Positions 2,150-32,637 of a stretch of 33,806 nucleotides of DNA are shown here, in pieces. The notes below the pieces were generated by a model. It did no database searches and was not told the DNA's origin. It saw nothing but the letters and a program-made list of their open reading frames with translations. The DNA is taken from NCBI GenBank assembly GCA_003542655.1, contig DPKF01000031.1:1-33806 (forward strand), in the 5' to 3' direction. Both the position numbers and the translations under genes were made by a program. How positions within the stretch are numbered: position 1 is the first letter of the stretch; each line of letters starts with the position of its first letter. Origin of the DNA: Holosporales bacterium. Its GTDB lineage: Bacteria > Pseudomonadota > Alphaproteobacteria > Paracaedibacterales > UBA11393.

Positions 2150-3136
2150 ATGAAAAAATATAGCTTGCTGTTTCTATTACTAACGTCACTTCATATACAC
2201 GCTAATATCGGCGTTCTTTTGGGCGCGGGTAGCAATTTGATAGTTTCAAAAACTAATGCCATTACACTAAAATCTGAAAAGGTTCATTTTAAGTTTTCAA
2301 CGCCGAGGAAAATTGAAAAATGGGGAGTTGACGCTTTATCACTTGTTGATGTTAATACAACATTTCACACACAAAATGTATCCAGCAAAACACACAGTAT
2401 ACAACTTGGATTCCCCATCTCTTTCAACACAAGTGGAGAGAACATAGTACTGCCTGCGCTAAACTTTTCGGTGCTTTCTAATTGTATAAAACAAGAAACC
2501 ACTTTTACAAAAGCAATAAAAAAATATAAAAGTTTATACTCATGGTCAGAAACCTACAAACCTAAAGAAGTTAAAACGCTTAACGTGTCCTATAAACTGT
2601 ATACTTCAGTTATAGCACCTGGAATTATTTTTTTTCAAGACGATAAAATGCAAACGATCCCCGTCATGGTTTTTGGATTTGAATATATAACTGAAACAGC
2701 CAACTCCTGGAAAGGCAATATAAAAAATGCAGTGTTCACTGCAGATTTAACAGATTTTATTCAAGCGGTGGATGCTAATCCTCAAACTCTAGTATCTACA
2801 ACATCAGAACATCAGAATAATCGACTTTATTTAGCGTCCTCCACATTTAGGCCACTTATATTTTTAACTTTTGAAAAACATGGAAATCGTGTTGATCAGA
2901 ATACAATTCTATGGAACTTTACAAATGCAATGCCAGCAAAATCATTATTTATAGCGATTAATTATGCTTATGTGCCTATTACGTTAGAAGCAGTAAAGAA
3001 TTTTGTGTCTTTACTTCCAAAATCAGCCATATCAAGTCTATTACATCTCTATCAAGATGCTCTTGGGAAAACTTTAATTCCTGATGACAATAAAGAGATA
3101 CAGCTAATCATTGATTATTTAAACACGCAATTATAA
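2150..3136 (+). CDS. Secreted hypothetical protein, possibly DUF4424-like
   Basis: 328-aa ORF whose ATG lies 2 nt after the surA stop. Signal peptide MKKYSLLFLLLTSLHIHA. The N-terminal pattern AN..LLGAGSNLIV.K.NAI.L.SEKV.F resembles my recollection of alphaproteobacterial DUF4424 proteins. That family call is weak. Confidence 0.5.
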   Translation: MKKYSLLFLLLTSLHIHANIGVLLGAGSNLIVSKTNAITLKSEKVHFKFSTPRKIEKWGVDALSLVDVNTTFHTQNVSSKTHSIQLGFPISFNTSGENIVLPALNFSVLSNCIKQETTFTKAIKKYKSLYSWSETYKPKEVKTLNVSYKLYTSVIAPGIIFFQDDKMQTIPVMVFGFEYITETANSWKGNIKNAVFTADLTDFIQAVDANPQTLVSTTSEHQNNRLYLASSTFRPLIFLTFEKHGNRVDQNTILWNFTNAMPAKSLFIAINYAYVPITLEAVKNFVSLLPKSAISSLLHLYQDALGKTLIPDDNKEIQLIIDYLNTQL

Positions 3137-6658: not shown

Positions 6659-6899
6659 GCTTTTCTTATTAATGTATGCTTTTCATTTTATATTATTTTA
6701 TTGAAAAAAGGGAGTTTTATACACAGTTTATTTGGTAACGACATTTAAACGAAAATACCCTACAGTCCATTCATTAACAAAACCTTAACAAAACAAACTT
6801 ATTTAATGAAATTTTTATTAAAATTATTTACATACCCCTTGATTTGAGATCTAATTCCGTGAAAACATGTATATATAGGGTTTATTATTTATAATCTAC

Positions 6900-7493
6900 A
6901 TGTCGTTTCCGTACAATAATCCACTCCACAACACAAGCTTTAGTGAACCAGTACCCAATATAAAAGATATTTTATTCCATTCAGATATGGATTCTGGAAC
7001 ATTGACCCCTACATGGATGTTAAAAATGGATGATGTATTTGAAGACATGTCAGAAATGGAAGTTGACGGTGGTACAATGTTTAACCCCTGCTTTGGGTTT
7101 AAAATGTTTGCACGTCGTCAAGTAAGCGGCTATCGATTAACACAAAATTATGCCAATTCGCGCGTCCACCATTCGCGCATTTGGTTTGTTGTGCCACTTG
7201 ATAACAGTACGCCAACCCTCTTCAACTATATGCATAATGGAAAAATTATTGAATCAACATCAATTGTGCGCCTTATTAATATTGGCGGAGAAGAATACAA
7301 CCAAATTATGTGGCAAGCAACTTTTGAGAATTCGCACCTAGAGCATGTTGAAATTATTCGTGATTATGTGATGATCGCCTTATCAGTCTCCACTGGAGAG
7401 CAAAAAGTCTTTAAATATAACAAAGATGGAACAAAAGGTGGTCAAGCTGTGTCAAGCTATGACTATGCAACAAATACTGGTGAAAAAGAATAA
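6900..7493 (+). CDS. Divergent Hcp-like protein (type VI secretion tube family); possible shorter form starting at ATG 7017
   Basis: Core motifs line up with Hcp proteins as I recall them. FVVPLDNSTPTLFNYMHNGK matches the ..iDkaSPnLmkya.tGK block. GGEEYNQIMWQATFENSHLEHV matches GG..leYl.itmedv.vt.v. GGQAVSSYDYATN matches the C-terminal GG.v..gYD.kaN. MLKMDDV resembles the mFLKidgi N-terminus. Starting at M40 (7017) would give 158 aa, close to the Hcp lengths I recall (about 160 aa). Confidence 0.55.
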   Translation: MSFPYNNPLHNTSFSEPVPNIKDILFHSDMDSGTLTPTWMLKMDDVFEDMSEMEVDGGTMFNPCFGFKMFARRQVSGYRLTQNYANSRVHHSRIWFVVPLDNSTPTLFNYMHNGKIIESTSIVRLINIGGEEYNQIMWQATFENSHLEHVEIIRDYVMIALSVSTGEQKVFKYNKDGTKGGQAVSSYDYATNTGEKE

Positions 7494-7553: not shown

Positions 7554-8864
7554 ATGCGCATTCATATTATTGGTCCGTTAGAAGGTTATGGTACAGAGGC
7601 CGCTAAAATGGCTATGGATAAAGGTGCACAAGTATTTTCCTGCACTAACATTGAAGAAAGTTTAAATAATTTACGCAAAGGCAATAATTGCGATCTAGTC
7701 CTTATTGATGTTAGCCTCGATATAAAAGCATTTATCACGTCATTAAAGGAAGAACGTTTTCACCTTGATGTGGTTGGATGCGGCGTTAAACCAGACCCAA
7801 AAAAAGCAGCCATTGCCATTCGTGCTGGTGCAAAAGAATACATTCCCCTACCCCCTGATCCAGAGATGATCTCTGCATTATTGCAGTCGCTTTCTCCTGC
7901 ACCTGAACAATCTATTATTGCAAATGCCCCTGCAATTAAAAAGGTCTTAGAACTTGCGGATCGTGTTGCATCAAGTGAAGCGAACATTCTGCTTACAGGT
8001 GAATCTGGAACGGGAAAAGAAGTTCTGGCACATTACATTCATCGTCAATCAAAACGTCAAAAAAAACCATTTATTGCAATAAACTGCGCAGCCATACCTG
8101 ATAATTTATTAGAATCTGAACTTTTCGGCCATGAAAAAGGTGCATTCACCGGCGCCCTTACACAACGTATTGGAAAATTTGAATCTGCAGATGGAGGCAC
8201 ATTATTATTAGATGAAGTCACTGAAATGCCCCTACAGATGCAAGCAAAGCTTTTGCGCGCTATCCAAGAGAAAATTATTGATCGCGTAGGTGGCACAAAA
8301 CCTGTTTCCATCAATATTCGCATTATTGCAACCAGCAACCGCGACATGTTACATGCTATAAAAAATGGTGACTTTAGAGAAGATTTATACTACAGATTAA
8401 ACGTTGTCAATTTGACCCTGCCACGTCTGCAAGAAAGACCAGTGGATATAATCCCCTTAGCAAATTATTTTATCCAAAAATATGCAAAAATCAATCAAAT
8501 TGCCATAAAACAATTGTCAATAACAGCAGAACAATCTCTGCTTAAATGGCCCTGGCCTGGTAATGTTCGGGAACTAGAAAACTTGATGCATCGCGCTGTT
8601 TTACTTGCAGGTGAAAAAATCCAGCCAACGGATATCTTTGGATATGAATACACCGAAACAACACAATCTAATTTCACTGATAATTCACCAATTGAAACCA
8701 ATGGTTTTATAGGTAAAAGCATTCAAGATGTTGAAAAAGAATTGATATTAAAAACCTTAGCGCACTGCACAGGGCACAAAAATAATGCTGCACAGATTTT
8801 GGGCATATCTATCAGAACACTTCAAAATAAGCTTAAAGAATATGAACAAAGCACATGCTTATAA
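7554..8864 (+). CDS. Sigma-54-dependent enhancer-binding protein (FlbD/FleQ-like) with a degenerate receiver-like N-domain
   Basis: AAA+ Walker A GESGTGKE, GAFTGA loop (HEKGAFTGAL), Walker B LLLDEV. C-terminal Fis-type HTH (AAQILGISIRTLQNKLKEY). flhA starts 15 nt downstream. Confidence 0.9.
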   Translation: MRIHIIGPLEGYGTEAAKMAMDKGAQVFSCTNIEESLNNLRKGNNCDLVLIDVSLDIKAFITSLKEERFHLDVVGCGVKPDPKKAAIAIRAGAKEYIPLPPDPEMISALLQSLSPAPEQSIIANAPAIKKVLELADRVASSEANILLTGESGTGKEVLAHYIHRQSKRQKKPFIAINCAAIPDNLLESELFGHEKGAFTGALTQRIGKFESADGGTLLLDEVTEMPLQMQAKLLRAIQEKIIDRVGGTKPVSINIRIIATSNRDMLHAIKNGDFREDLYYRLNVVNLTLPRLQERPVDIIPLANYFIQKYAKINQIAIKQLSITAEQSLLKWPWPGNVRELENLMHRAVLLAGEKIQPTDIFGYEYTETTQSNFTDNSPIETNGFIGKSIQDVEKELILKTLAHCTGHKNNAAQILGISIRTLQNKLKEYEQSTCL

Positions 8865-8879
8865 AGGGTAATAAAATTC

Positions 8880-11012
8880 ATGTCTGACAGCATTAATCTT
8901 TCAAGCGCAAAAAAAACATCTAATGGGTTTGATTTAGCCGCCCTTAGCCAACGTACCGATTTAATGTTTGCCTTAGCATTTATGGCCGTGATTGCTGTCC
9001 TTATTATGCCATTGCCAAAATTCATGTTAGACAGCTGCCTTGCTATTTCCATTGCATTCTCATTCATGATTTTAATGACTGCCCTTTTTATTGAAAAACC
9101 ATTAGAATTTTCATCTTTTCCAACAATTCTTCTGGTTTCTACCATGTTGCGCTTATCGTTAAACGTCGCCTCAACGCGTCTTATCTTAAGCCACGGACAC
9201 GAAGGAACGAATGCAGCCGGTCGTGTGATTGAAGCCTTTGGACACTTTGTGATGGGTGGTAATTTTGTCATTGGTATCATTGTCTTTATCATCTTACTGA
9301 TTGTGAACTTTATCGTCATCACAAAAGGATCGTCACGTATTGCTGAAGTATCAGCCCGTTTTAGCCTAGATGCCATGCCTGGAAAACAAATGGCTGTAGA
9401 TGCTGATTTATCATCAGGCCTTATAGATGAAGATGAAGCAAAACGTCGCCGAAAAGAACTAGAAGGAGAAAGCAACTTTTTTGGTTCTATGGATGGTGCA
9501 GCAAAATTTGTAAGGGGAGACGCCATTGCAGGGCTTCTCATCACCCTCATCAATATTATTGGCGGCATTATTATTGGTGTCGTCCAACAAGGAGTCAGTT
9601 TAGCTGACGCTGCCCATTCATATATAATCTTAAGTGTTGGTGACGGTCTTGTGACTCAAATACCAGCCATTATTGTATCAACCTCAGCTGGTATGATGGT
9701 TTCTAAAGCTGGTGTTGAAGGAACCGCTGATAAAGCTATGTTTCAACAGTTATCCGCTAATCCCTCTGCCCTTGGGATGAGCTCTTTTTTAATGGGGTGC
9801 ATCGCCCTGCTTCCTGGCATGCCTATTCTCCCCTTTTTAACGCTCAGTGGTTTAACTGGGTTTGCTGCTTGGTTTATTAACGAAAAACAAAAAGGCAACC
9901 AAGAAACCATCCGCAAAAAAGAAAAAGAGCACAAAGCCAAAGAAACGGAAAAAACTTTAGAAACGCAAGCACAGGATGACGCCCTAAACCCTGTGGATTC
10001 TATTCGTATTGAAATGGGCTTTGGCTTACTGTCCTTATTAAATGGTGATTCAAAAAGAAAAGCACTATCTGAACAAATAAAGATACTTCGCAAACAAATG
10101 CTTGGCGATATCGGCATTATTTTACCGTCTGTTCGCATTCAAGATAATTTACAATTAGACCAAGAAGCCTATTCAATTAAAATTAAAGAAATTGAAGCCG
10201 GTTCAGGAACATTACGACCTAATCATTATCTTGTGATGGATCCTGAAGCAAATGATATTAGTATCCCCGGTGAGAAAACAACAGAACCGAGTTTTGGTTT
10301 ACCTGCCCTTTGGGTAGCTGCAGAATATAAAGATCAAGCAGAAGAAAAAAAATATACAGTGGTTGACCCTGCCATGGTTTTAGCAACACATTTATCTGAA
10401 ATTGTTAAAGATAATATTGGCGAACTTTTATCCTATGGAGATGTCCAAAAAGTATTGGACCAAGTTCCTGAATCCTATAAAAAATTATTATCTGATATCG
10501 TTCCTGTCAATATTACCGTTGGCGGCATTCAACGCGTCCTGCAATCCCTTGTAAGCGAACGTGTTTCAATTCGCGATATTGGCACCATTTTAGAAGGCAT
10601 CGCAGAAGCAACGGGTTTTTCTAAAAACACAGACGGCATTGCAGAACATGTTCGCCACAAACTATCGCGCCAAATTAGCTTTAGTAATTTGGATGATAAT
10701 GGCGTCTTACCAATATTAACGCTTGCACAAGAATGGGAAGAAGCGTTTCATCGTTCTTTAGCAGGTGACAACGAAAACAGATATCTTGCCATGGCACCAA
10801 CTGAATCACATCTATTTATGAGAAGAATTGCGGATGAATATGACCGCCTCACCATGATTGGTGAAATGCCTATTCTTATTACAAGCAGCCCCATACGTAT
10901 TTATGTAAGATCTCTGACAGAACGTGTCCGCCCAGCAATACAAGTGATGAGCCAAAACGAACTGCACCCAAAATGTAAAATTCGGAATTTAGGTCAAATC
11001 AGTATGGGTTAG
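8880..11012 (+). CDS. flhA: Flagellar export apparatus protein FlhA
   Basis: FHIPEP signature FPTILLVSTMLRLSLNVASTRLIL, then RIAEVSARFSLDAMPGKQMAVDADL. 710 aa with an N-terminal TM domain and a large cytoplasmic C-domain. Confidence 0.95.
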   Translation: MSDSINLSSAKKTSNGFDLAALSQRTDLMFALAFMAVIAVLIMPLPKFMLDSCLAISIAFSFMILMTALFIEKPLEFSSFPTILLVSTMLRLSLNVASTRLILSHGHEGTNAAGRVIEAFGHFVMGGNFVIGIIVFIILLIVNFIVITKGSSRIAEVSARFSLDAMPGKQMAVDADLSSGLIDEDEAKRRRKELEGESNFFGSMDGAAKFVRGDAIAGLLITLINIIGGIIIGVVQQGVSLADAAHSYIILSVGDGLVTQIPAIIVSTSAGMMVSKAGVEGTADKAMFQQLSANPSALGMSSFLMGCIALLPGMPILPFLTLSGLTGFAAWFINEKQKGNQETIRKKEKEHKAKETEKTLETQAQDDALNPVDSIRIEMGFGLLSLLNGDSKRKALSEQIKILRKQMLGDIGIILPSVRIQDNLQLDQEAYSIKIKEIEAGSGTLRPNHYLVMDPEANDISIPGEKTTEPSFGLPALWVAAEYKDQAEEKKYTVVDPAMVLATHLSEIVKDNIGELLSYGDVQKVLDQVPESYKKLLSDIVPVNITVGGIQRVLQSLVSERVSIRDIGTILEGIAEATGFSKNTDGIAEHVRHKLSRQISFSNLDDNGVLPILTLAQEWEEAFHRSLAGDNENRYLAMAPTESHLFMRRIADEYDRLTMIGEMPILITSSPIRIYVRSLTERVRPAIQVMSQNELHPKCKIRNLGQISMG

Positions 11013-20289: not shown

Positions 20290-21495
20290 TTATGGCAGTG
20301 CACAAACTGCAGGACAGCTGTTACCAATACTTGAGTATAGACTTTCAATCACAACGAAAGCCACCACAGCAGAAAAACTGATAATAAAGGTTGGATAATC
20401 ACAATTTCTTTTAACGATGGCAAATTCAATACGCAAAGCGCTCATAATGAAATACCCCATAATAAAGCTATAAGTTAAGATGCCCATCAAAGGTGTAAAA
20501 TCAAAGAATGGTAGTTTTCTAATAGCAAGACCGCCAACAATCATTGATGATAAAAATATTTGGCGTACTAAGCTAGAACGGCCAGAAAATGTATTTGCAA
20601 GCGTAATGGATTCACAAAATACCAAAGCACCAATCACAACTGTTATCATGATCAATTCAAAAGATCCACCTGATTTAAATAAAGTCTCTAAATGCAAGCC
20701 AAAGAAAAAATGCACAATACCTAAAATTGCTAGATTAGAACCATATAATAGGGGACCATGTGGCATTTCTTCAATCATATTGCGTGCTGCACGCTTTTCA
20801 AAAATATAGTTAAATACAAAGCCAAGGCTTAGTACACCAAAAACGACAAGCAATAAATGCTCTAAGTTTCCAAGATATAAATTTTTTATTTTTTTAGATG
20901 CAAACGGTAAATACTCTAAAACAAACGGAACGCCTTTAATTAACAAATATCCAAAAGAAGCGCCACTGATTATGGAATATCGCTTCCGTGAATCTGTAGA
21001 GAAAAATCCTTTTGCAAGTGCCGCAATCCATTGCATGGCAACAATCAACAATGCACAGGAAGCAACAAGTATAACACCATACGCATCTGCTGCTGCAGCT
21101 TCTTTTTTTGCAACCGAACGTTGTATTGGTTGTAATATTTCTGTTTTCAAGTCTTCATTTGTCAAAACTTCCACCTTGTTTGCGTTTACCGCTTCACCAG
21201 AATTGTCTGATTGTTGCGTTTCACTGTCAGGTAGGGCAGAAACGTCACCAGATGGCATATTTTGCTCACCATTCCCAGATGACGATGCATCGTATGGATT
21301 ATTAGGTGGCACGTCTCCATCCCCAGATGAAGGTTCTGATGAACCATAAGGATTACTAGAGGCTGCCTCACCATCTGCAGATGCTGATGTTCCATAAGGA
21401 TTATCTGCACTTGAATTCATCTGCCCCCCCTCATTCGCATCCGGAGCACTTGATTCAGCACTATTTCCATACATTCCATTTTCAGTTGTAGACAT
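20290..21495 (-). CDS. Polytopic membrane protein with a disordered N-terminal tail carrying NPY(G/D) repeats
   Basis: 401-aa ORF. The first roughly 140 aa are S/N/G/P/D-rich with NPYGTSAS, NPYGSSEPS and NNPYDASSS. The rest is about 7-8 hydrophobic helices. No family recognised. Confidence 0.6.
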   Translation of the reverse strand: MSTTENGMYGNSAESSAPDANEGGQMNSSADNPYGTSASADGEAASSNPYGSSEPSSGDGDVPPNNPYDASSSGNGEQNMPSGDVSALPDSETQQSDNSGEAVNANKVEVLTNEDLKTEILQPIQRSVAKKEAAAADAYGVILVASCALLIVAMQWIAALAKGFFSTDSRKRYSIISGASFGYLLIKGVPFVLEYLPFASKKIKNLYLGNLEHLLLVVFGVLSLGFVFNYIFEKRAARNMIEEMPHGPLLYGSNLAILGIVHFFFGLHLETLFKSGGSFELIMITVVIGALVFCESITLANTFSGRSSLVRQIFLSSMIVGGLAIRKLPFFDFTPLMGILTYSFIMGYFIMSALRIEFAIVKRNCDYPTFIISFSAVVAFVVIESLYSSIGNSCPAVCALP

Positions 21496-21598
21496 AACTT
21501 TATTGCCTTTAAATAGGTCTTCTTAACTCTACCCTACCCAAATATTCTTAAAAAATCGTTAACATTTTAATGATCTTGTAAATATTTTCATCATATTT

Positions 21599-24424: not shown

Positions 24425-24931
24425 TCACAAATAGTCTTTTGCCCAATTTTCACTATAATATGCAGGGTCTTCGTGATAAAGCCGCCAAATAAATTGCTCA
24501 AAAGAATCTTCTATTTTAATGTTTGTATACACTGTATAAACAGCATTGGGATGAAGGCTCTCTGGTTTCATAATCAAAAAATTAGAGCTGTCATGAATTT
24601 CAAAAAAGGGAAGATCTCCGGGTTGTAACATTTCGTAGGTGTCTTGAGAAATTAATCCAGAATCATGACCATTTTTTACCATGTCTACAATCATGCTAGG
24701 AGGATTTATACGATTAACACTATAAAAGATGTAATCTTTGTCAAATTTTATAGGATGAGTTAAAAAACCATAACCAATTTCTCTATAAAATTGTCTTAAT
24801 TCACTTGGGAAAGTAATCCCTAATTCTTTTTCTGCTTTTTTAATTTCTATATCATCTATTCGATAAAAAGAATTACTGGGTTTGGTTAAATTTCTAGGCG
24901 AGTCCATAAACTGATTTAAATATTTATACAT
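24425..24931 (-). CDS. SMI1/KNR4 (SUKH-1) family immunity protein
   Basis: IDDIEIKKAEKELGITFPSELRQFYREIGYGFL is the SUKH/SMI1-KNR4 signature. I start it at ATG 24931 (MYKYLNQ), which has AAGGAG 7 nt upstream. The track start at 25039 would overlap the toxin gene by 97 nt. Confidence 0.8.
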   Translation of the reverse strand: MYKYLNQFMDSPRNLTKPSNSFYRIDDIEIKKAEKELGITFPSELRQFYREIGYGFLTHPIKFDKDYIFYSVNRINPPSMIVDMVKNGHDSGLISQDTYEMLQPGDLPFFEIHDSSNFLIMKPESLHPNAVYTVYTNIKIEDSFEQFIWRLYHEDPAYYSENWAKDYL

Positions 24932-24942
24932 TGCATAGCTCC

Positions 24943-25758
24943 TTATGATAAAGTTCTTAGAATTTCCATAAGCCGTGACGCTGATCCGTGCAAGATTTCT
25001 TGGTGCATTGGTGTGGCTGCTGGATGCATGTTCCACCATTCGTGAGGCCCTTTTACTTGTTGGGGAATTATGTGATGGGCTTGAAATTGTGTATCACTCT
25101 TAGCAATCAACTTTCCATCTTTACCAAGAACATCTTTTGTATACTTAGGCCAGTCTCGTACCTTGGTTGTGCCGCCCATATGTTCCCAATCTTTTATTAA
25201 TTTCTGCCTTGTAGCGGGAGTGAAATTATTTGAATGTGACGCTTTCTCGCCTACAGACAGTTTCTCAAATTGTTTGTTCTTTAAGCAATAGTCTATCAGC
25301 TGTTTTTTTTGCTCTATCGTAATTTTTCTACCTGTAGTTATTTCAACTTCTCTCAATGCTGTACGTAACTCTGTACCGGGAACTTCTCGTGCATTTCCAT
25401 TGGCTGCCGTTTGTTTAGCATTTTTTATGACCGCGTTTGCTTCTTTTTTTTGCATAATATGTTTTGCAAATACTTGTCCGGCCTTAAGGGCTGATTCAGC
25501 AGCAACCTGTACAGTGCTCTGCGGTGCCGCCGAAGACTTGACAGCAGCAGGTGCAGCTCCGTTATGTCCAGCAGCACCGCCTCTGCTTACTATACCACCT
25601 GTACCCTGTGCTTTCATAGAGCTTTGTGTTGGGATAGTATGGCCCATTGTCCTTGCGATGTCTGCCCTAACTGTGGTGGCACCTATGCTAACCAAAAGAC
25701 CTAAAAGGAGTCTGAAAAATAGATTGTAACGAAAACCTATCTTGTTTTGAAACGTCAT
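24943..25758 (-). CDS. Secreted HNH (beta-beta-alpha-Me) nuclease toxin, colicin-DNase/AHH-like
   Basis: Signal peptide (LFFRLLLGLLVSIGATTVRA). Ala/Gly-rich linker. The C-terminal FQAHHIIPQQVKGPHEWWNMHPAATPMHQEILH aligns by eye with the colicin E9 H-N-H motif [33 protein letters not shown] (recalled). A SUKH immunity gene follows. Confidence 0.75.
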   Translation of the reverse strand: MTFQNKIGFRYNLFFRLLLGLLVSIGATTVRADIARTMGHTIPTQSSMKAQGTGGIVSRGGAAGHNGAAPAAVKSSAAPQSTVQVAAESALKAGQVFAKHIMQKKEANAVIKNAKQTAANGNAREVPGTELRTALREVEITTGRKITIEQKKQLIDYCLKNKQFEKLSVGEKASHSNNFTPATRQKLIKDWEHMGGTTKVRDWPKYTKDVLGKDGKLIAKSDTQFQAHHIIPQQVKGPHEWWNMHPAATPMHQEILHGSASRLMEILRTLS

Positions 25759-25847
25759 AATGAGGTTTTTAGTCCTTTGTCGTGCTGGCCTCTAGTGCCG
25801 CGATTTCTTCCTCAGATTTAAGCAATTTTTTTAAATTGTTTATCCTA

Positions 25848-26594
25848 TCAATCATACAACCCACCAAGTTGTTTTGTAATAAGCTCTTTAGGCACAAGGG
25901 GATAGTCTACCATCACATCTAAGCCCTTAAAGCGTGCAAGATTCACAACAGCAAGTGGCCAAAAGGCGATCACCTCATCAACAGTGCCACCAAAAATGCC
26001 TTGGGGGGTGCTTAACCGTTTGTGACCCTTGATCATGGTAGCGAATCCAGAAAGGAACTTTTCCTTATCGTGATCGTAAATTGCTTGAAAGCAAAGCGCA
26101 TACCCAACATAGGATTTTAATCTTTTAGCAAATATTATTTCCATATCATTTAAATCTGCACGTGTACCATCTTGGCCCAGAATAAAAAGGCGAAAAGCTT
26201 TATGGCAGTGTTTTGCAAGTGGTCCAGTTTTTTTTAAGTTAATATTTAAAAACCTTTTCACTATATTTTTGATCAAATCTAAATCTTGGGTGCATAACGT
26301 TTCAAAGATTTTGTCAAAAGCTGGAGCGCTTACAAATTCATAATCTTCTGGATATTCACCTGCATCACGTTTATCAAGCATTTTGTTTTGATAATGCACA
26401 ACCTGTTTCATATGATCAATGAAACCCTGAACATCGTGATCCAGAACATAGGAACATACGGCGAAAAAACGGTGATCATCCATATACCAATACCATGTAC
26501 GTGGATCGTCTTCTCCTTTTTCTTCTTTTCTCTTGTTATGTTGCTCTAAATATTCAATCTTTAAATCGGATAATCTTTCTTGCAAATCTCCCAT
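25848..26594 (-). CDS. Putative immunity protein (family unassigned) paired with the truncated toxin domain upstream
   Basis: 248-aa cytoplasmic-looking, probably helical protein. Its ATG is 1 nt after the toxin stop, and an AGGAGA Shine-Dalgarno sits inside the toxin's last codons (CAATTAGGAGAATAATATG). The assignment rests on position only. Confidence 0.5.
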   Translation of the reverse strand: MGDLQERLSDLKIEYLEQHNKRKEEKGEDDPRTWYWYMDDHRFFAVCSYVLDHDVQGFIDHMKQVVHYQNKMLDKRDAGEYPEDYEFVSAPAFDKIFETLCTQDLDLIKNIVKRFLNINLKKTGPLAKHCHKAFRLFILGQDGTRADLNDMEIIFAKRLKSYVGYALCFQAIYDHDKEKFLSGFATMIKGHKRLSTPQGIFGGTVDEVIAFWPLAVVNLARFKGLDVMVDYPLVPKELITKQLGGLYD

Positions 26595-26595
26595 A

Positions 26596-27027
26596 TTATT
26601 CTCCTAATTGTGGGGCATGGGGCAAATCAACTTTCGTCCAAGAATTATGGCCACTTGCATCTGTGACATTCACACGACGACGGATTAAGCCTAGGTTATT
26701 TTCTAAAATTTTTGCTGTTGATTTTAATGTTGGATCTTCTATTTTTTTCATATCCCTGATCTTTGCTAAAACCCAAGGTTCACTCATTTGTGTAACCTCG
26801 TTAACATTTTTAGCCATGCTTGCATTTCCTGATGTTGCATATTTTGATTCTACAATAATAATGTCAGCGGGTACACCCGGTTTTTCCCATTTTACAAATA
26901 CACCATCAAACCCCTTATTACCTGGTAGTTTAGATTCAAGTTTTACATAACCGGCACGAAGCATCGTTGCTTCACCGGCTGCCTCTCCAATTGCCCCTTT
27001 AACTTGGGCAACACGGGCGTTTAACAT
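26596..27027 (-). CDS. 5'-truncated (orphan) toxin C-terminal domain with a PD-(D/E)xK restriction-endonuclease-like motif
   Basis: GAIGEAAGEATMLRAGY...GFDGVFVKW...ADIIIVESKY gives a D...ExK arrangement. The frame stays open upstream of the first Met into antisense IS630 sequence, with no SD. So the delivery part of the gene is missing. Confidence 0.55.
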   Translation of the reverse strand: MLNARVAQVKGAIGEAAGEATMLRAGYVKLESKLPGNKGFDGVFVKWEKPGVPADIIIVESKYATSGNASMAKNVNEVTQMSEPWVLAKIRDMKKIEDPTLKSTAKILENNLGLIRRRVNVTDASGHNSWTKVDLPHAPQLGE

Positions 27028-29296: not shown

Positions 29297-30403
29297 TCAC
29301 GAATTTAAAATAAAATTTAACATCATTGCTAAAGACTTCATCGCCCTATTACGGACGCCCTCTAAACAACCACCATTTTCTTTATAGTTTTCCATTATTT
29401 GCTGTAAAACAAGATATTTAAGCGTGCCAAAAGTGGTATCACCATCAAGCGCCTTAAGCTCATCTAAAATAGAAATTGTATAAGCCACAAGTGATAAAAC
29501 TTTAGGGCGATTTGCCGCTTGCATTACTGCACCCGCAATCCATCTTTCTCCTGCTTCAGCTGAAAAACCATGTTGCGCTTGTACGCTATCATCTGGAAAA
29601 TGGCTCATAAAACGAAAAAGCACTTGATAAACTTCAGAACGCTTAGGGCCTTCTGCTTCTGCTGCAGCTTCTTCCTTGTAGTCAGCCTTACCAAAACCCA
29701 TATCGTTTGCTACTTGTAATAATGCATCAATATTTGCTGCACAAAAATCGTCATGCTGATGCACATCACCAAAAGTATTAATCTGTGTCAGAACGGATGC
29801 AACAACTTGACGCATATCAGACACTTTAGGATGCCTGCGTGCAGATAACATTTTAATAACAACTAATTCTCTTGCTGCATTAGCAACAGCATATTGTGCT
29901 GGTAAAGGAATACCAAATAATACATGCTTAATATGGGCTATATCACTTGATGAAAAATGATCACCAAGAGCGGCAGTTATATTATCGGGACCAATCGCTT
30001 CCAACGCCCCTAAAATGATACCTGCCTGTTTTAATTTTTCTGCAAGAGATTCTGGCAATTCTGGTGCTGCATGTCTAACAGACCTTGTGCCTTCTGGCCT
30101 CACCGATAGTGCAGCAGGCGCAGCTGCTTCAGGATGTGCAAATAAAACGCTAGAAATAACTGCTAAATCATGCTGTGACAATCCGCTATCAGAAAATACA
30201 GCACGGACGTCCTCAGCATTATGAAATTGTCTTAAAACATCAGCGTGAATATCATTTTCTATCAGTTTGAACACTAATGCACTTGGTAGCCCCTCAATTC
30301 CATATTGTGCTGCAATAGATTGCTCTAGCGCATCATCATCTGATGCAAATACCTGTGTCATCAGTGTTGTAACGAACACCATTTTAAAAAAAACTTTTTT
30401 CAT
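29297..30403 (-). CDS. Secreted hypothetical protein with an internal roughly 52-aa duplication
   Basis: Signal peptide MKKVFFKMVFVTTLMTQVFA. Two related segments, LPSALVFKL...SQHDLAVISSVLFAHP and LPESLAEKL...SSSDIAHIKHVLFGIP. Good AAGGA SD. No family recognised. Confidence 0.6.
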   Translation of the reverse strand: MKKVFFKMVFVTTLMTQVFASDDDALEQSIAAQYGIEGLPSALVFKLIENDIHADVLRQFHNAEDVRAVFSDSGLSQHDLAVISSVLFAHPEAAAPAALSVRPEGTRSVRHAAPELPESLAEKLKQAGIILGALEAIGPDNITAALGDHFSSSDIAHIKHVLFGIPLPAQYAVANAARELVVIKMLSARRHPKVSDMRQVVASVLTQINTFGDVHQHDDFCAANIDALLQVANDMGFGKADYKEEAAAEAEGPKRSEVYQVLFRFMSHFPDDSVQAQHGFSAEAGERWIAGAVMQAANRPKVLSLVAYTISILDELKALDGDTTFGTLKYLVLQQIMENYKENGGCLEGVRNRAMKSLAMMLNFILNS

Positions 30404-30447
30404 ACCTTTTCCTTATATTATTTTTTTTAACTTACTAGTATATACAA

Positions 30448-30476
30448 AACATAATGTCTCTAGATCAAAAAGTCAA
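30448..30476 (-). promoter_or_regulatory. Candidate sigma-70-type promoter for the 29297-30403 gene
   Basis: The minus strand reads TTGACT, a 17-nt spacer, then TATGTT, in the 92-nt gap after flhB. By-eye match only. Confidence 0.3.
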
Positions 30477-30495
30477 TGTTTGTTTTTAATATGTT

Positions 30496-31575
30496 TTAAT
30501 AAATCGTTTTTTGTTTCATTTCCATCACAATGCGCAAAACAGCCGCAACAGATTTATAGAATTTTGGTGGAATTTCGTCTTCTATATCAACCAGACCATA
30601 CAAAGAACGCGTCAACGGTGGGTTTTCAATCACGGGTATATTATTATTTTTTGCAACTTCCCTTATGCGTAACGCAACAGCATCTTGCCCCTTTGCAACC
30701 ACAATAGGGGCATGCATACTGTCTTCGTCCCATTTTAAGGCAATTGAGTAGTGCGTTGGGTTTGTAAGAATAACTGTTGCTTTTGGGACTTCCGCCATCA
30801 TACGCTTACGTGATTTTTCCATCCGCAACTGCTTTAATTTTTGCTTAATTTCTGGGTCTCCATCAGCTTCCTTATGCTCTTTTTTTAAGTCATATTTACT
30901 CATACGCATTTTTTTAAAATAACTAAAACGCTGATAAAAATAATCACCCACAGCAATAAAACCAAATGCAATAATCAAACTTAAATAGACAACAAAATTT
31001 AAATCATATATAACTTTTCCAAACTCCGATGTGCTTAGCCACATCCAAGTACTTAAAAATTTTGTTTCATCATGCAAACTGATATATAAAGCACCACCAA
31101 GCACAATTAATTTAGCAACATTTTTCAATGAATCGACTAGGTTTTCTTTTGAAAAGATCTTCTTAAACCCCTTTTTTAAAGATAAATTAGAAAATTTAGG
31201 TTTAATCGATTTAAACGTAATAGCGCCCCATTTTTGCGGTAAACCACCAAGTAAGGCGGCCACAAAAAGCACAATCATAGTTGGCGCTAATATTTTTAAA
31301 AGAACAATATAAACATGCCACCCTACTTTTTTTGTGCTTATTTCTAAATCAAACGTATGAGGACGCTCTATAAAAACGAGGCTATCTGTCAGCATTGTTT
31401 TTACAGACCAAGGCAGTACATACAAAATGCAAATGGCGCTACTCATAATCATACAAAAGGTGATAATTTCTTTTGAAAAAACAACATTACCCTCCTCTTT
31501 GGCTTTCTCTAATTTTCGACTAGAAGGTTCTTCAGTCTTATCATCACTATCATCATCGCCCTTATCCTCAGACAT
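30496..31575 (-). CDS. flhB: Flagellar export apparatus protein FlhB
   Basis: The NPTH autocleavage site is present (LTNPTHYSIALKW). Charged N-terminus, four TM helices, 359 aa. Starts 3 nt after the fliR stop. Confidence 0.93.
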   Translation of the reverse strand: MSEDKGDDDSDDKTEEPSSRKLEKAKEEGNVVFSKEIITFCMIMSSAICILYVLPWSVKTMLTDSLVFIERPHTFDLEISTKKVGWHVYIVLLKILAPTMIVLFVAALLGGLPQKWGAITFKSIKPKFSNLSLKKGFKKIFSKENLVDSLKNVAKLIVLGGALYISLHDETKFLSTWMWLSTSEFGKVIYDLNFVVYLSLIIAFGFIAVGDYFYQRFSYFKKMRMSKYDLKKEHKEADGDPEIKQKLKQLRMEKSRKRMMAEVPKATVILTNPTHYSIALKWDEDSMHAPIVVAKGQDAVALRIREVAKNNNIPVIENPPLTRSLYGLVDIEDEIPPKFYKSVAAVLRIVMEMKQKTIY

Positions 31576-31578
31576 AGA

Positions 31579-32352
31579 TCACCTTTTTTGAAAAATTTTA
31601 ATAAAGTTTTCCGAAAAAACAATTTGAAAACCGTTTAGCAGATGCCCTATCAGCAAAGACATCATTAAAAAACCCACAAAAACTTGGGCTGGCATAATAA
31701 TGCTAAACACCTGAATTTGTGGGATAATTTTATTTAAAAGCCCAATACTAAAATTTAAAATTAGCGCCACAATGATAAATGGGTAAGCAAATTGCAGACC
31801 AAGTAAAAACATTTTTTGAAAACTATCAAGTAAACTTATTTTAAAATCATGCAACACGCCAAGCTGATGAATATCAATAAATTCATAGGAATGATATAAA
31901 ACCTGCACAAGCGTATGATGAAAATTTGCTGCAAACAACAAAACAACTGCACCAACTGTTAAAGCGAGTGTAGGTAACATTGTTTGTGAGCCACTAGATG
32001 GATTAAAAAGCATCGCACTGGATAACCCAGATTCCATACCAATAATATGCCCTAAAATATCAATCAAAAAAAACAAAACCTTTGCAGATAACCCTATAAA
32101 TGCCCCCATACCAAATTCTAAAAGCATTAAATATAGAATATTTATTTGATTCAGGTCACTTGTCGTTGGAAGAAACTTACTAATAAGTGGCGTTAAAAAT
32201 ATGGCAAGCGTTGCGGCCAACATAACCTTAGCTTGTGATACAATTTCTTTTTGCGAAAAAATAGGCGCCATCATAATCAAACCTAATACACGGGCAAAAC
32301 ACAAGAAAAACGGATAAAGCCCGTCCAAGGCCAGATTATGGACATTATTCAT
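31579..32352 (-). CDS. fliR: Flagellar export apparatus protein FliR
   Basis: 257-aa polytopic membrane protein located between fliQ and flhB. The N-terminus FFLCFARVLGLIMMAPIFS is typical of FliR. Confidence 0.9.
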   Translation of the reverse strand: MNNVHNLALDGLYPFFLCFARVLGLIMMAPIFSQKEIVSQAKVMLAATLAIFLTPLISKFLPTTSDLNQINILYLMLLEFGMGAFIGLSAKVLFFLIDILGHIIGMESGLSSAMLFNPSSGSQTMLPTLALTVGAVVLLFAANFHHTLVQVLYHSYEFIDIHQLGVLHDFKISLLDSFQKMFLLGLQFAYPFIIVALILNFSIGLLNKIIPQIQVFSIIMPAQVFVGFLMMSLLIGHLLNGFQIVFSENFIKIFQKR

Positions 32353-32358
32353 AGAGCA

Positions 32359-32637
32359 CTACCTATTGATTCCACCAGAATTGGTAATTTTTACGAAGAG
32401 CGTTCTTGTAAATGTTTCAAAAGATGGCACTAGATAAGGCAAAACAATTAAGCCCATTGCGATCACAGCAACAAATTTAGGAACAAAGGTTAGTGTCATT
32501 TCTTGAATTTGCGTAATGGCCTGAATAAGCGACACAACCATACCCAACACCAATGCGGTTAGAACCATCGGTGCCGATAATTTAAGAATTAAGAAGGACA
32601 TTTCCTGTAGTATGACAATGACCTCAGCTGCATTCAT
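32359..32637 (-). CDS. fliQ: Flagellar export apparatus protein FliQ
   Basis: 92 aa. LSAPMVLTALVLGMVVSLIQAITQIQEMTLTFVPKFVAV closely parallels E. coli FliQ [38 protein letters not shown]. Confidence 0.93.
   Translation of the reverse strand: MNAAEVIVILQEMSFLILKLSAPMVLTALVLGMVVSLIQAITQIQEMTLTFVPKFVAVIAMGLIVLPYLVPSFETFTRTLFVKITNSGGINR

What the first reader, a model, noticed from the sequence alone, without database searches (positions are those of the whole stretch)
6900..7493. Stand-alone, divergent Hcp-like gene with no other T6SS genes nearby
The ORF matches Hcp tube proteins in several separated blocks, compared from memory with P. aeruginosa Hcp1 and Agrobacterium Hcp. PLDNSTPTLFNYMHNGK matches IDKSTPNLMMACSSGK / IDRASPNLMKYALTGK. 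GGEEY..I...ATFENSHLEHV matches GGSPLEYLKITMEDVIVTHV. GGQAVSSYDYATN matches GGAVTAGYDFKAN. Yet the canonical N-terminal GES and WxW features are replaced (EDM, FGFKM). There is also either a 39-aa N-terminal extension or an internal start at 7017. No TssB/C, VgrG or baseplate genes occur in this window. It could be a tube or chaperone protein of a distant T6SS, a phage-tail-like or eCIS tube relative, or a repurposed Hcp-fold protein.
Basis: partly seen in the sequence, partly recalled or inferred. Interest (0 to 1): 0.7.

Follow-up and report, generated by a model that had tools for sequence, protein, structure and literature searches.

The report
Hcp paralog heading a flagellar operon
The gene really does encode a type VI secretion tube (Hcp) relative, but it is a slowly evolving extra copy that always sits first in an operon with the flagellar master activator FlbD and the export gate FlhA, which suggests a secretion-tube protein re-wired into flagellar control in protist-associated alphaproteobacteria.

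Summary
ORF 6900..7493(+) encodes a 197-aa protein with an Hcp/TssD fold. Pfam T6SS_HCP gives E=1.3e-4, 0.8 bit under the cut-off. The AlphaFold model (pLDDT 83) matches solved Hcp structures at Foldseek E=5e-12, TM about 0.8. The 39-aa N-terminal extension is real; ATG 7017 is an internal, conserved Met.

It belongs to a divergent Hcp family from Holosporales-like bacteria. Other members of that family occupy the canonical tssB-tssC-hcp(-tssE-F-G) slot. The window gene ("HcpX") is a separate, tight clade. In all six lineages examined it lies directly upstream of flbD, the sigma-54 flagellar activator. In five of them flhA follows. A conserved CtrA-box-like motif lies upstream, and the flanking genes differ between lineages.

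HcpX is as conserved as FlbD and FlhA (dN/dS about 0.02-0.03). Sheath-linked Hcps are only 21-30% identical where TssC is about 70%. One MAG carries both hcpX-flbD-flhA and tssB-tssC-hcp, so HcpX is an extra paralog in a T6SS-bearing lineage.

My preferred reading is inferred, not shown: HcpX is an Hcp-ring partner or sensor of FlbD, analogous to Hcp-VasH and FliX-FlbD. The main rival is an ordinary T6SS tube or carrier subunit that is merely co-expressed with early flagellar genes. I rate it a new variant of a known kind, of moderate interest.

The parts
6900..7493 (+). hcpX: 197-aa Hcp/TssD-fold protein. Residues 1-38 are the family-typical N-terminal extension; residues 39-196 are the Hcp beta-barrel.
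6774..6789 (+). CtrA-box-like motif TTAACAAAACCTTAAC (TTAA-N7-TTAAC), 126 to 111 bp upstream of the ATG. Putative class-II-type control element (inferred).
   Evidence: Exact match. On its own this is not significant: 2 matches in the window against 1.25 expected. Among close relatives the half-sites are invariant while the spacer varies, and alignable sequence begins at the box. TT[TA]A-N7-TTAA[CT]A lies at -122 to -133 in 7 of 8 loci, whereas 14% of shuffled 200-nt regions contain it anywhere.
6790..6899 (+). Conserved promoter/leader region (CCCCTTGATTTGA...CGTGAAAACAT...TATATAGGGTTTATTATT). The exact -35/-10 elements and the transcription start are not resolved.
   Evidence: No sigma-54 -24/-12 match with two or fewer mismatches in 6659-6899.
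7554..8864 (+). flbD: 436-aa sigma-54 enhancer-binding protein with a degenerate receiver domain. It starts 60 bp downstream of hcpX, with no terminator between them.
   Evidence: NCBIfam NF050807 FlbD scores 626 bits over the full length; the next family scores 351. Pfam domains. No terminator found.
8880..11012 (+). flhA: flagellar type III export gate, 15 bp after flbD.
   Evidence: PF00771 FHIPEP, E=1e-253.

Best explanation
HcpX is a true descendant of the type VI secretion inner-tube protein (Hcp/TssD). It belongs to the divergent, N-terminally extended Hcp family of Holosporales-like alphaproteobacteria.

Shown:
- It has the Hcp barrel.
- It is a separate, slowly evolving paralog.
- It is always the first gene of an hcpX-flbD(-flhA) unit, preceded by a conserved CtrA-box-like element.
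- At least one MAG carries it in addition to a sheath-linked hcp.

Inferred:
- It is made together with FlbD as an early (class II-type) flagellar product.
- It assembles into Hcp-type rings.
- It acts as a protein partner of FlbD. FlbD's degenerate receiver domain is controlled by a bound protein rather than by phosphorylation (FliX in Caulobacter). In Vibrio cholerae, free Hcp binds the sigma-54 activator VasH to report secretion status.
- On this model the cytoplasmic pool of HcpX, depleted by T6SS firing or by incorporation into a structure, tunes FlbD-dependent late flagellar transcription. That would couple the T6SS and flagellar programmes of a host-associated bacterium.
For: Identity as Hcp:
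-.

Family origin in T6SS loci:
- L012: tssB-tssC-hcp-hcp-tssE.
- L019/L020: tssB-tssC-hcp-tssE-tssF-tssG.
- L018: tssB-tssC-hcp.
- Literature arrangement [tssB-tssC-hcp] in Holosporales (PMC8163844).

Separate clade:
- NJ tree.

Operon conservation:
- flbD lies directly downstream, on the same strand, with gaps of 17-60 bp, in six lineages: the window group (window, L013, L014, L016, L017), L001/L002, L003/L004, L005/L006, L007/L015 and L022.
- Flanking genes differ between lineages.
- The hcpX-flbD pair is kept in L001 even though flhA is not adjacent there.

Constraint:
- dN/dS is 0.02-0.03 at dS about 1.
- HcpX is 59-79% identical across lineages, against FlbD 65-83% and FlhA 69-79%.
- Between close relatives HcpX is 93-96% identical, against FlbD 85-87%.
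- Sheath-linked Hcps are only 21-30% identical where TssC is 70-73%.

Paralogy within one MAG:
- GCA_018061565.1 has hcpX-flbD-flhA on contig 18 and tssB-tssC-hcp on contig 45. The two Hcps are 22% identical.

Precedents:
- The FliX-FlbD complex replaces phosphorylation as the control on FlbD (PMC3096577).
- Hcp binds the regulatory domain of the sigma-54 activator VasH as feedback (Manera et al. 2021, as cited in PMC9972734).
Against: - No direct evidence of an HcpX-FlbD contact. No multimer modelling or co-evolution analysis was possible here.
- Adjacency could reflect co-regulation only.
- HcpX is more conserved than FlbD between close relatives. FlbD binding alone therefore does not explain the constraint. 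Ring, tube and sheath contacts would explain it equally well.
- The N-terminal extension is shared with sheath-linked paralogs, so it is not a specific adaptation to FlbD.
- VasH binds Hcp through a GAF domain, which FlbD lacks.
- Whether these genomes lack fliX is unknown.
- The within-genome co-occurrence rests on one MAG and so depends on correct binning.
Confidence: 0.38

Rival explanations
1. HcpX is an ordinary structural or cargo-carrier Hcp of the dispersed Holosporales T6SS. It stacks into the tube inside the TssBC sheath, possibly as the main and best-conserved tube subunit of this lineage. It sits in front of flbD only because T6SS and early flagellar genes are needed at the same (infective or transmission) stage, so co-transcription was fixed.
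For: - Holosporales T6SS genes are scattered over four or more loci, and T6SS is present in almost all sequenced members (PMC8163844; PMC11909080).
- tssBC are present in the same MAG as HcpX.
- The fold is closest to bona fide tube Hcps.
- High conservation is what multi-interface tube subunits usually show, and it matches TssC conservation of about 70%.
- A polymorphic toxin/immunity cassette is present in the window.
Against: - HcpX is restricted to a narrow clade: 3 GTDB species and one 50%-identity cluster among 1.84 billion representatives. Holosporales-type TssC is widespread, with the 120 listed hits all at 69% identity or more. HcpX therefore cannot be the general tube subunit.
- A sheath-linked Hcp already exists in the one MAG that could be checked.
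- No effector, vgrG or PAAR gene accompanies it in any locus.
- The pairing with flbD survives rearrangements that separate flhA.
Confidence: 0.35
2. HcpX works with the flagellar type III export apparatus. Either it is a ring-shaped chaperone for export substrates, in the way Hcp rings chaperone T6SS effectors. Or it is itself an export substrate whose secretion through FlhA signals basal-body completion, an FlgM-like checkpoint acting on FlbD.
For: - Conserved co-transcription with flhA in 5 of 6 lineages.
- The extreme N-terminus has low predicted order (pLDDT below 50 for residues 1-11), as flagellar export signals do.
- How the FlbD system senses assembly of the class II structure has not been worked out; PMC3096577 only reports that FliX switches from negative to positive regulator once the early basal body is complete.
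Against: - No precedent for Hcp-fold proteins in flagellar export.
- A folded 20-kDa beta-barrel or hexamer is a poor T3SS substrate.
- The N-terminal extension is shared with T6SS-linked paralogs.
- The hcpX-flbD pair persists without an adjacent flhA in L001.
Confidence: 0.1
3. HcpX is a tube or tail-completion protein of a phage-tail-like particle (eCIS, tailocin or prophage remnant).
For: Weak fold similarity to T4 gp19/gp3-type tube and completion proteins.
Against: - PDB Hcp matches are six orders of magnitude better in E-value and have much higher TM scores.
- No sheath, baseplate or phage genes are in the window or in any orthologous locus.
- The sequence profile hits only T6SS_HCP.
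Confidence: 0.02

Closest known systems
T6SS inner-tube protein Hcp/TssD (e.g. A. baumannii Hcp1 4w64, P. aeruginosa Hcp1 1y12, Salmonella Hcp1/2 5xhh/5xeu)
   Same: Same beta-barrel fold (TM about 0.8, rmsd 3.2-3.5 A over about 164 columns). The shared sequence blocks around the helix (PLD.STP.LF) and the C-terminal hairpin (G..GQ.VS.YDY) are recognisable.
   Different: - About 15-19% identity.
- Sub-threshold on PF05638 and TIGR03344.
- 38-aa N-terminal extension.
- Not next to any T6SS gene; instead it is the first gene of a flbD-flhA operon.
Holosporales sheath-linked Hcp ('Hcp1-like superfamily protein' CPBP_00987 of Ca. Bodocaedibacter vickermanii; P0035, P0043 and L018 ORF 3168-3713 here)
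   Same: Same divergent family: profile E from 1e-22 to 1e-3, shared N-terminal extension and the TP(E)WM...FG(W/F)...GQ.VS..DY motifs. Same bacterial group.
   Different: - Only 21-28% identical to HcpX.
- These sit after tssB-tssC (PMC8163844).
- They evolve several-fold faster.
Hcp-VasH feedback in Vibrio cholerae (Manera et al. 2021 PNAS, cited in PMC9972734)
   Same: An Hcp protein functionally coupled to a sigma-54 enhancer-binding protein. This is the model for the proposed HcpX-FlbD partnership.
   Different: - There the Hcp is the structural tube protein and the activator controls hcp/T6SS genes through a GAF domain.
- Here the activator is the flagellar regulator FlbD, which has a degenerate receiver domain.
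- The interaction here is only inferred from gene order.
FliX, the trans-acting partner of FlbD in Caulobacter crescentus (PMC3096577)
   Same: A small protein made with early flagellar genes. It binds FlbD and switches its activity instead of phosphorylation. This is the functional niche proposed for HcpX.
   Different: No sequence or family relationship: only T6SS_HCP is hit even at E<=10. FliX is not known to have an Hcp fold. Whether fliX is present in these genomes was not determined.

Membership tests
Hcp/TssD (PF05638 T6SS_HCP; TIGR03344) | Sequence-profile match at or above the curated threshold | tested here: inconclusive
   - PF05638: 22.7 bits against a cut-off of 23.5, E=1.3e-4.
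- TIGR03344: 18.2 against 58.9.
- 13 of 36 family members hit PF05638 at E<0.01, best 3.6e-6.
- Family profile against PDB Hcp 9qpe: E=5e-6.
Hcp/TssD (PF05638 T6SS_HCP; TIGR03344) | Hcp beta-barrel fold | tested here: met
   AF2 model with pLDDT 83, pTM 0.77. In the Foldseek PDB search the top 19 hits are Hcp-type entries (one, 4tv4, deposited as 'uncharacterized protein'), and the rest of the top 50 are all Hcp apart from one Hcp1-fusion construct (4ksr). E ranges from 4.8e-12 to 5e-6, with TM(target) up to 0.80.
Hcp/TssD (PF05638 T6SS_HCP; TIGR03344) | Hexameric ring that stacks into a tube inside the TssBC sheath | not testable with these tools
   Only monomer prediction was available. This needs AlphaFold-Multimer, SEC-MALS, negative-stain EM or cryo-EM.
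Hcp/TssD (PF05638 T6SS_HCP; TIGR03344) | Encoded with, or in a genome with, T6SS core genes | tested here: inconclusive
   - Not met in the window: no T6SS genes.
- Not met in any hcpX locus.
- Met at genome level in one MAG, GCA_018061565.1, which has tssB-tssC-hcp on another contig.
- Paralogs sit in canonical clusters.
Hcp/TssD (PF05638 T6SS_HCP; TIGR03344) | T6SS-dependent secretion | not testable with these tools
   Requires experiment.
Phage/eCIS tail tube (T4 gp19-like, Afp1/Pvc1-like) | Profile or fold match better than to Hcp, and neighbouring sheath/baseplate genes | tested here: not met
   No Pfam tube family hit at E<=10. The best BFVD hit has E=4.7e-6, TM 0.51-0.58 and rmsd 7.5 A. 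No such neighbours.
FliX (class II flagellar assembly regulator, Pfam FliX family) | Sequence homology to FliX | tested here: not met
   hmmscan against Pfam at E<=10 returned only T6SS_HCP. Any FliX-like role would be by analogy, not by membership.

The most novel reading that the evidence does not exclude
HcpX is a new kind of regulator of a sigma-54 enhancer-binding protein. It would be a T6SS tube-protein paralog that binds FlbD and whose cytoplasmic level, set by secretion or polymerisation, gates late flagellar gene expression. That would make it a secretion-coupled checkpoint (FlgM-like in logic, Hcp-VasH-like in parts) that replaces or supplements FliX and cross-wires T6SS and flagella in protist-associated Holosporales-like bacteria.
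Probability: 0.25. Interest if true: 0.8.

Novelty: new variant of a known kind. Interest (0 to 1): 0.55.

Why it matters
1. It shows that the 'missing' tube protein of the Holosporales T6SS is a divergent, N-terminally extended Hcp family that standard profiles barely detect. A 2025 review describes that T6SS as non-standard for apparent lack of TssD. The family includes several paralogs per genome.

2. One paralog has been captured by the flagellar regulatory operon and is under much stronger constraint than the sheath-linked copies. This is a concrete, testable case of a contractile-injection tube protein being re-used, or at least re-wired, in the control of another nanomachine.

3. If HcpX binds FlbD, it would generalise the Hcp-VasH principle, in which tube subunits act as intracellular signals for sigma-54 activators. 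It would also give a handle on how obligate symbionts switch between motile or infective and intracellular states.

Tried and rejected
- Internal start at 7017: rejected.
- Sigma-54 promoter upstream of hcpX, which would make it an FlbD or VasH-type target: no -24/-12 match with two or fewer mismatches in 6659-6899.
- Sigma-70 and terminator scans: uninformative, with counts at or below shuffle expectation and no terminator between hcpX, flbD and flhA.
- CtrA box from the window alone: not significant. It became meaningful only through cross-lineage footprinting. I could not define the -35/-10 elements or the transcription start.
- Phage or eCIS origin: rejected.
- The search for related loci with the broad alignment A2 failed because it had no conserved stretch.
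- The genome and metagenome scans with A1 gave only 3 and 2 loci.
- The word-indexed search with A2 recovered few distant members.
- The TssC search gave only generic organism names. Co-occurrence was eventually obtained through a cluster member from the same MAG.
- P0018, the best outgroup hit, lies on a 793-bp contig and gave no context.
- Literature searches found no paper linking Hcp with FlbD, none linking flbD with Holosporales, and none naming the CG_4_10 MAG.
- Presence or absence of fliX, rpoN, ctrA and the remaining tss genes in the window's own genome could not be tested.

Full report
**1. The observation**

The ORF 6900..7493(+) exists and encodes 197 aa. ATG 6900 is the first possible start after an in-frame stop at 6876. 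Several independent tests link it to Hcp:
- hmmscan finds a single Pfam family, T6SS_HCP (PF05638), at E=1.3e-4 and 22.7 bits. That is just under the 23.5-bit gathering score.
- TIGR03344 (TssD) is hit only weakly.
- phmmer against PDB sequences puts Salmonella Hcp2 and Hcp1 first (E about 4e-3).
- A profile of 36 family members hits a solved Hcp (9qpe) at E=5e-6 over almost its whole length. Thirteen of the 36 members reach E<0.01 on PF05638 individually.
- An AlphaFold2 model built on that alignment has mean pLDDT 83 and pTM 0.77. Its best PDB matches are all T6SS Hcp proteins: 4w64, 8yun, 4tv4, 1y12 and 3eaa, at E from 4.8e-12 to 5e-10, TM(target) 0.75-0.80 and rmsd 3.2-4.5 A. A first, shallower model gave the same ranking.
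- Phage tail-tube and completion proteins match far less well: E>=4.7e-6, TM 0.4-0.6 and rmsd mostly 5-9 A.

The protein belongs to the T6SS branch of the tube fold, not the phage or eCIS branch.

**2. Start codon and N-terminal extension**

Sixteen homologous protein clusters (62-96% identity, 195-199 aa) align from residue 1. Many of the first 40 residues are invariant.

Against two relatives at dS about 1, the whole gene has dN/dS of 0.02-0.03, and codons 1-40 have 0.05-0.12.

Met40 (ATG 7017) lies in the family-wide first-strand motif TP(E/T)WM(I/L)K(M)D. It is an internal residue, not a start.

An extension of about 35 aa, with a loosely conserved (I/V)P-x(3-5)-(I/L) motif, is present in the whole wider family.

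**3. What family it belongs to**

A profile search of 1.84 billion representatives returned 93 proteins. The whole HcpX clade collapsed into one 50%-identity cluster. About 85 further hits were proteins of roughly 160-240 aa, about 21-29% identical in the aligned subset. A few long or truncated proteins also appeared. Among them, three long proteins match repeatedly at the C-terminal hairpin only and look like YD/RHS repeats; I did not check this.

Contexts of the distant members show what they are:
- P0035 lies in tssB-tssC-hcp-hcp'-tssE (L012).
- P0043 lies in tssB-tssC-hcp-tssE-tssF-tssG (L019/L020).
- Others occur as tandem paralog arrays (L009, L011) or alone (L021).

NCBI labels on MAG proteins in this family read 'Holosporales bacterium' or 'Alphaproteobacteria bacterium'.

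This agrees with the literature. Midha et al. report that in Bodocaedibacteraceae, Paracaedibacteraceae and Caedimonadaceae the T6SS genes are split over four or more loci, including [tssB-tssC-hcp]. They annotate CPBP_00987 as an 'Hcp1-like superfamily protein' (PMC8163844).

A 2025 review calls the Holosporineae T6SS non-standard because TssD and TssJ appear to be lacking (PMC11909080). The poor detectability seen explains that impression.

**4. What is special about the window gene**

*Separate clade.* In a neighbour-joining tree of 107 family members, the window protein and its 16 close homologs form a tight clade on a long stem.

*Fixed position.* Every locus of this clade with enough sequence has the same arrangement: hcpX, then 17-60 bp, then a 436/437-aa sigma-54 enhancer-binding protein on the same strand. 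In five of six lineages flhA follows. The six lineages are:
- the window group (window, L013, L014, L016, L017);
- L001/L002;
- L003/L004;
- L005/L006;
- L007/L015;
- L022.

The flanks differ. PBP1A lies upstream in the window. A thiolase lies upstream in four lineages. Other genes lie upstream in L001 and L014. Downstream genes vary as well. In L001 flhA is not adjacent, but the hcpX-activator pair is retained.

*The neighbour is FlbD.* The activator scores 626 bits, full length, on NCBIfam's FlbD model, against 351 for the next family. Its receiver domain scores below the Pfam threshold, as expected for FlbD. The window also carries flhB, fliR and a fliQ-like ORF.

*Likely one transcript.* No terminator separates hcpX, flbD and flhA. 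No sigma-54 promoter precedes hcpX.

*Conserved upstream box.* A TTAA-N7-TTAAC box lies at 6774-6789. By itself it is not significant. Cross-lineage comparison makes it meaningful:
- Among close relatives, alignable sequence starts at this box.
- The half-sites are invariant while the spacer varies.
- A TT[TA]A-N7-TTAA[CT]A box sits at -122 to -133 in 7 of 8 representatives, whereas 14% of shuffled 200-nt regions have one anywhere.

This is the consensus of the CtrA box (my own knowledge). CtrA drives early (class II) flagellar genes in Caulobacter. The assignment to CtrA is an inference.

**5. Evolutionary regime**

Across the five diverged lineages compared, HcpX is 59-79% identical. FlbD is 65-83% and FlhA 69-79%. 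Between close relatives HcpX (93-96%) is better conserved than FlbD (85-87%) and equals FlhA (92-94%).

The sheath-linked Hcps behave differently. In three tssBC loci they are 21-30% identical, although their TssC are 70-73% and their TssB 59-63% identical.

HcpX is therefore a strongly constrained paralog in a family whose canonical members evolve quickly.

HcpX is also rare. It was found in three GTDB species representatives and two JGI metagenome contigs. Holosporales-type TssC is abundant by comparison.

**6. Does the lineage have a T6SS?**

The window has none that I could recognise. However, MAG GCA_018061565.1 carries hcpX-flbD-flhA on contig JAGOTX010000018 (L007). The same MAG carries tssB-tssC followed by a 181-aa ORF on contig JAGOTX010000045 (L018).

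That ORF matches the family profile at 99.9% hhalign probability. It is 22% identical to the HcpX of the same MAG.

Subject to correct binning, HcpX is an additional paralog in a T6SS-bearing organism. It is neither the only Hcp nor an Hcp in a T6SS-less genome.

**7. Mechanism**

Shown:
- Hcp fold.
- Descent from T6SS Hcp.
- Fixed position as the first gene of hcpX-flbD(-flhA).
- Strong purifying selection.
- Co-existence with a sheath-linked Hcp.

Inferred, my preferred model (about 0.38): HcpX is a protein partner of FlbD. Three lines point that way:
- FlbD is not controlled by phosphorylation. It is controlled by a stably bound trans-acting protein, FliX, which is made with early flagellar genes (PMC3096577).
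- In V. cholerae, Hcp itself binds the regulatory domain of the sigma-54 activator VasH. The cytoplasmic Hcp level then feeds back on transcription (Manera et al. 2021, as described in PMC9972734).
- Persistent adjacency through rearrangements is the classic signature of interacting products. This is established comparative-genomics reasoning, not a test.

The main rival (about 0.35) is that HcpX is simply a tube or carrier subunit of the dispersed T6SS that is co-transcribed with early flagellar genes. High conservation fits a multi-interface tube subunit. The following argue against it without excluding it:
- the narrow distribution of HcpX;
- the presence of a sheath-linked Hcp in the same MAG;
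- the lack of any effector, vgrG or PAAR neighbour;
- the retention of the flbD pairing.

A role in flagellar type III export, as chaperone or secreted checkpoint, is possible but has no precedent (about 0.1). A phage or eCIS origin is effectively excluded.

**8. Comparison with the known, and novelty**

By fold and descent HcpX belongs to the Hcp/TssD superfamily. By curated sequence thresholds it is borderline. Ring and tube formation and secretion are untested.

It is not a FliX homolog.

I found no paper linking an hcp gene to flbD or to a flagellar operon, and none that discusses flbD in Holosporales.

I rate it a new variant of a known kind: a known protein family in a new, conserved genetic wiring and evolutionary regime, with function unproven. 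Interest is 0.55. The identity itself is unsurprising for Holosporales. The conserved capture of a T6SS tube paralog by the FlbD operon is unexpected and directly testable. The family also resolves the reported 'missing TssD'.

Noticed in passing
window 24425-27027 (- strand): A cassette that looks like a polymorphic toxin/immunity locus of the kind described in Ca. Bodocaedibacter. It holds a SUKH-1/SMI1_KNR4 immunity-type gene (24425-25039), a 271-aa ORF with a weak C-terminal HNH/AHH nuclease motif (24943-25758), an Imm49-like gene (25848-26594) and a 143-aa unknown ORF. It could hold T6SS cargo.
   Followed up: partly
window 29297-32637 (- strand): A second flagellar export block: a fliQ-like 92-aa ORF (32359-32637, not profile-tested), fliR (31579-32352) and flhB (30496-31575). 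It is followed by an unknown 368-aa ORF (29297-30403) with no Pfam match.
   Followed up: partly
window 21548-21563: The only other exact TTAA-N7-TTAAC match in the window. It lies 53 bp upstream of an unknown 401-aa ORF (20290-21495, - strand) with no family match, which may be another CtrA-type target.
   Followed up: no
L012, L018, L019 (tssB-tssC-hcp loci): Sheath-linked Hcps of Holosporales-like bacteria are only 21-30% identical where TssC is 70-73% and TssB 59-63%. L012 has two tandem hcp genes that are 44% identical. This is unusually fast evolution for a tube protein. It is probably why a recent review lists TssD as apparently missing in this group.
   Followed up: partly
L009 7421-9372; L011 1158-2330: Tandem arrays of two or three divergent Hcp-family paralogs with no T6SS genes nearby.
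   Followed up: no
L021 1246-1818: Another orphan family member (P0019) lies 2.4 kb from a flgI...flgK...fliW block. This is a second, looser Hcp-flagellar neighbourhood in a different clade and could be coincidence.
   Followed up: no
L005 13369-13950: A gene hitting the eukaryotic mitochondrial carrier family (PF00153) on a Holosporales-like contig that also carries hcpX-flbD-flhA. This is consistent with a host-associated lifestyle or gene acquisition from a host.
   Followed up: no
P0017 (7054 aa), P0064, P0081: Giant proteins matching the HcpX profile 5-25 times, but only over the C-terminal hairpin (profile 143-190, 'G..GQ.VS.YDY'). They are probably YD/RHS-type repeats rather than Hcp homologs.
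   Followed up: no
window 2150-3136 (+): A 328-aa ORF directly after surA has no Pfam or NCBIfam match. In many proteobacteria that position is occupied by pdxA (from my own knowledge).
   Followed up: no
L013 (CAZTIE010000113.1): A contig 96% identical at HcpX, and syntenic with the window, is deposited in a MAG labelled 'uncultured Verrucomicrobiales bacterium'. This is probably a binning error.
   Followed up: no
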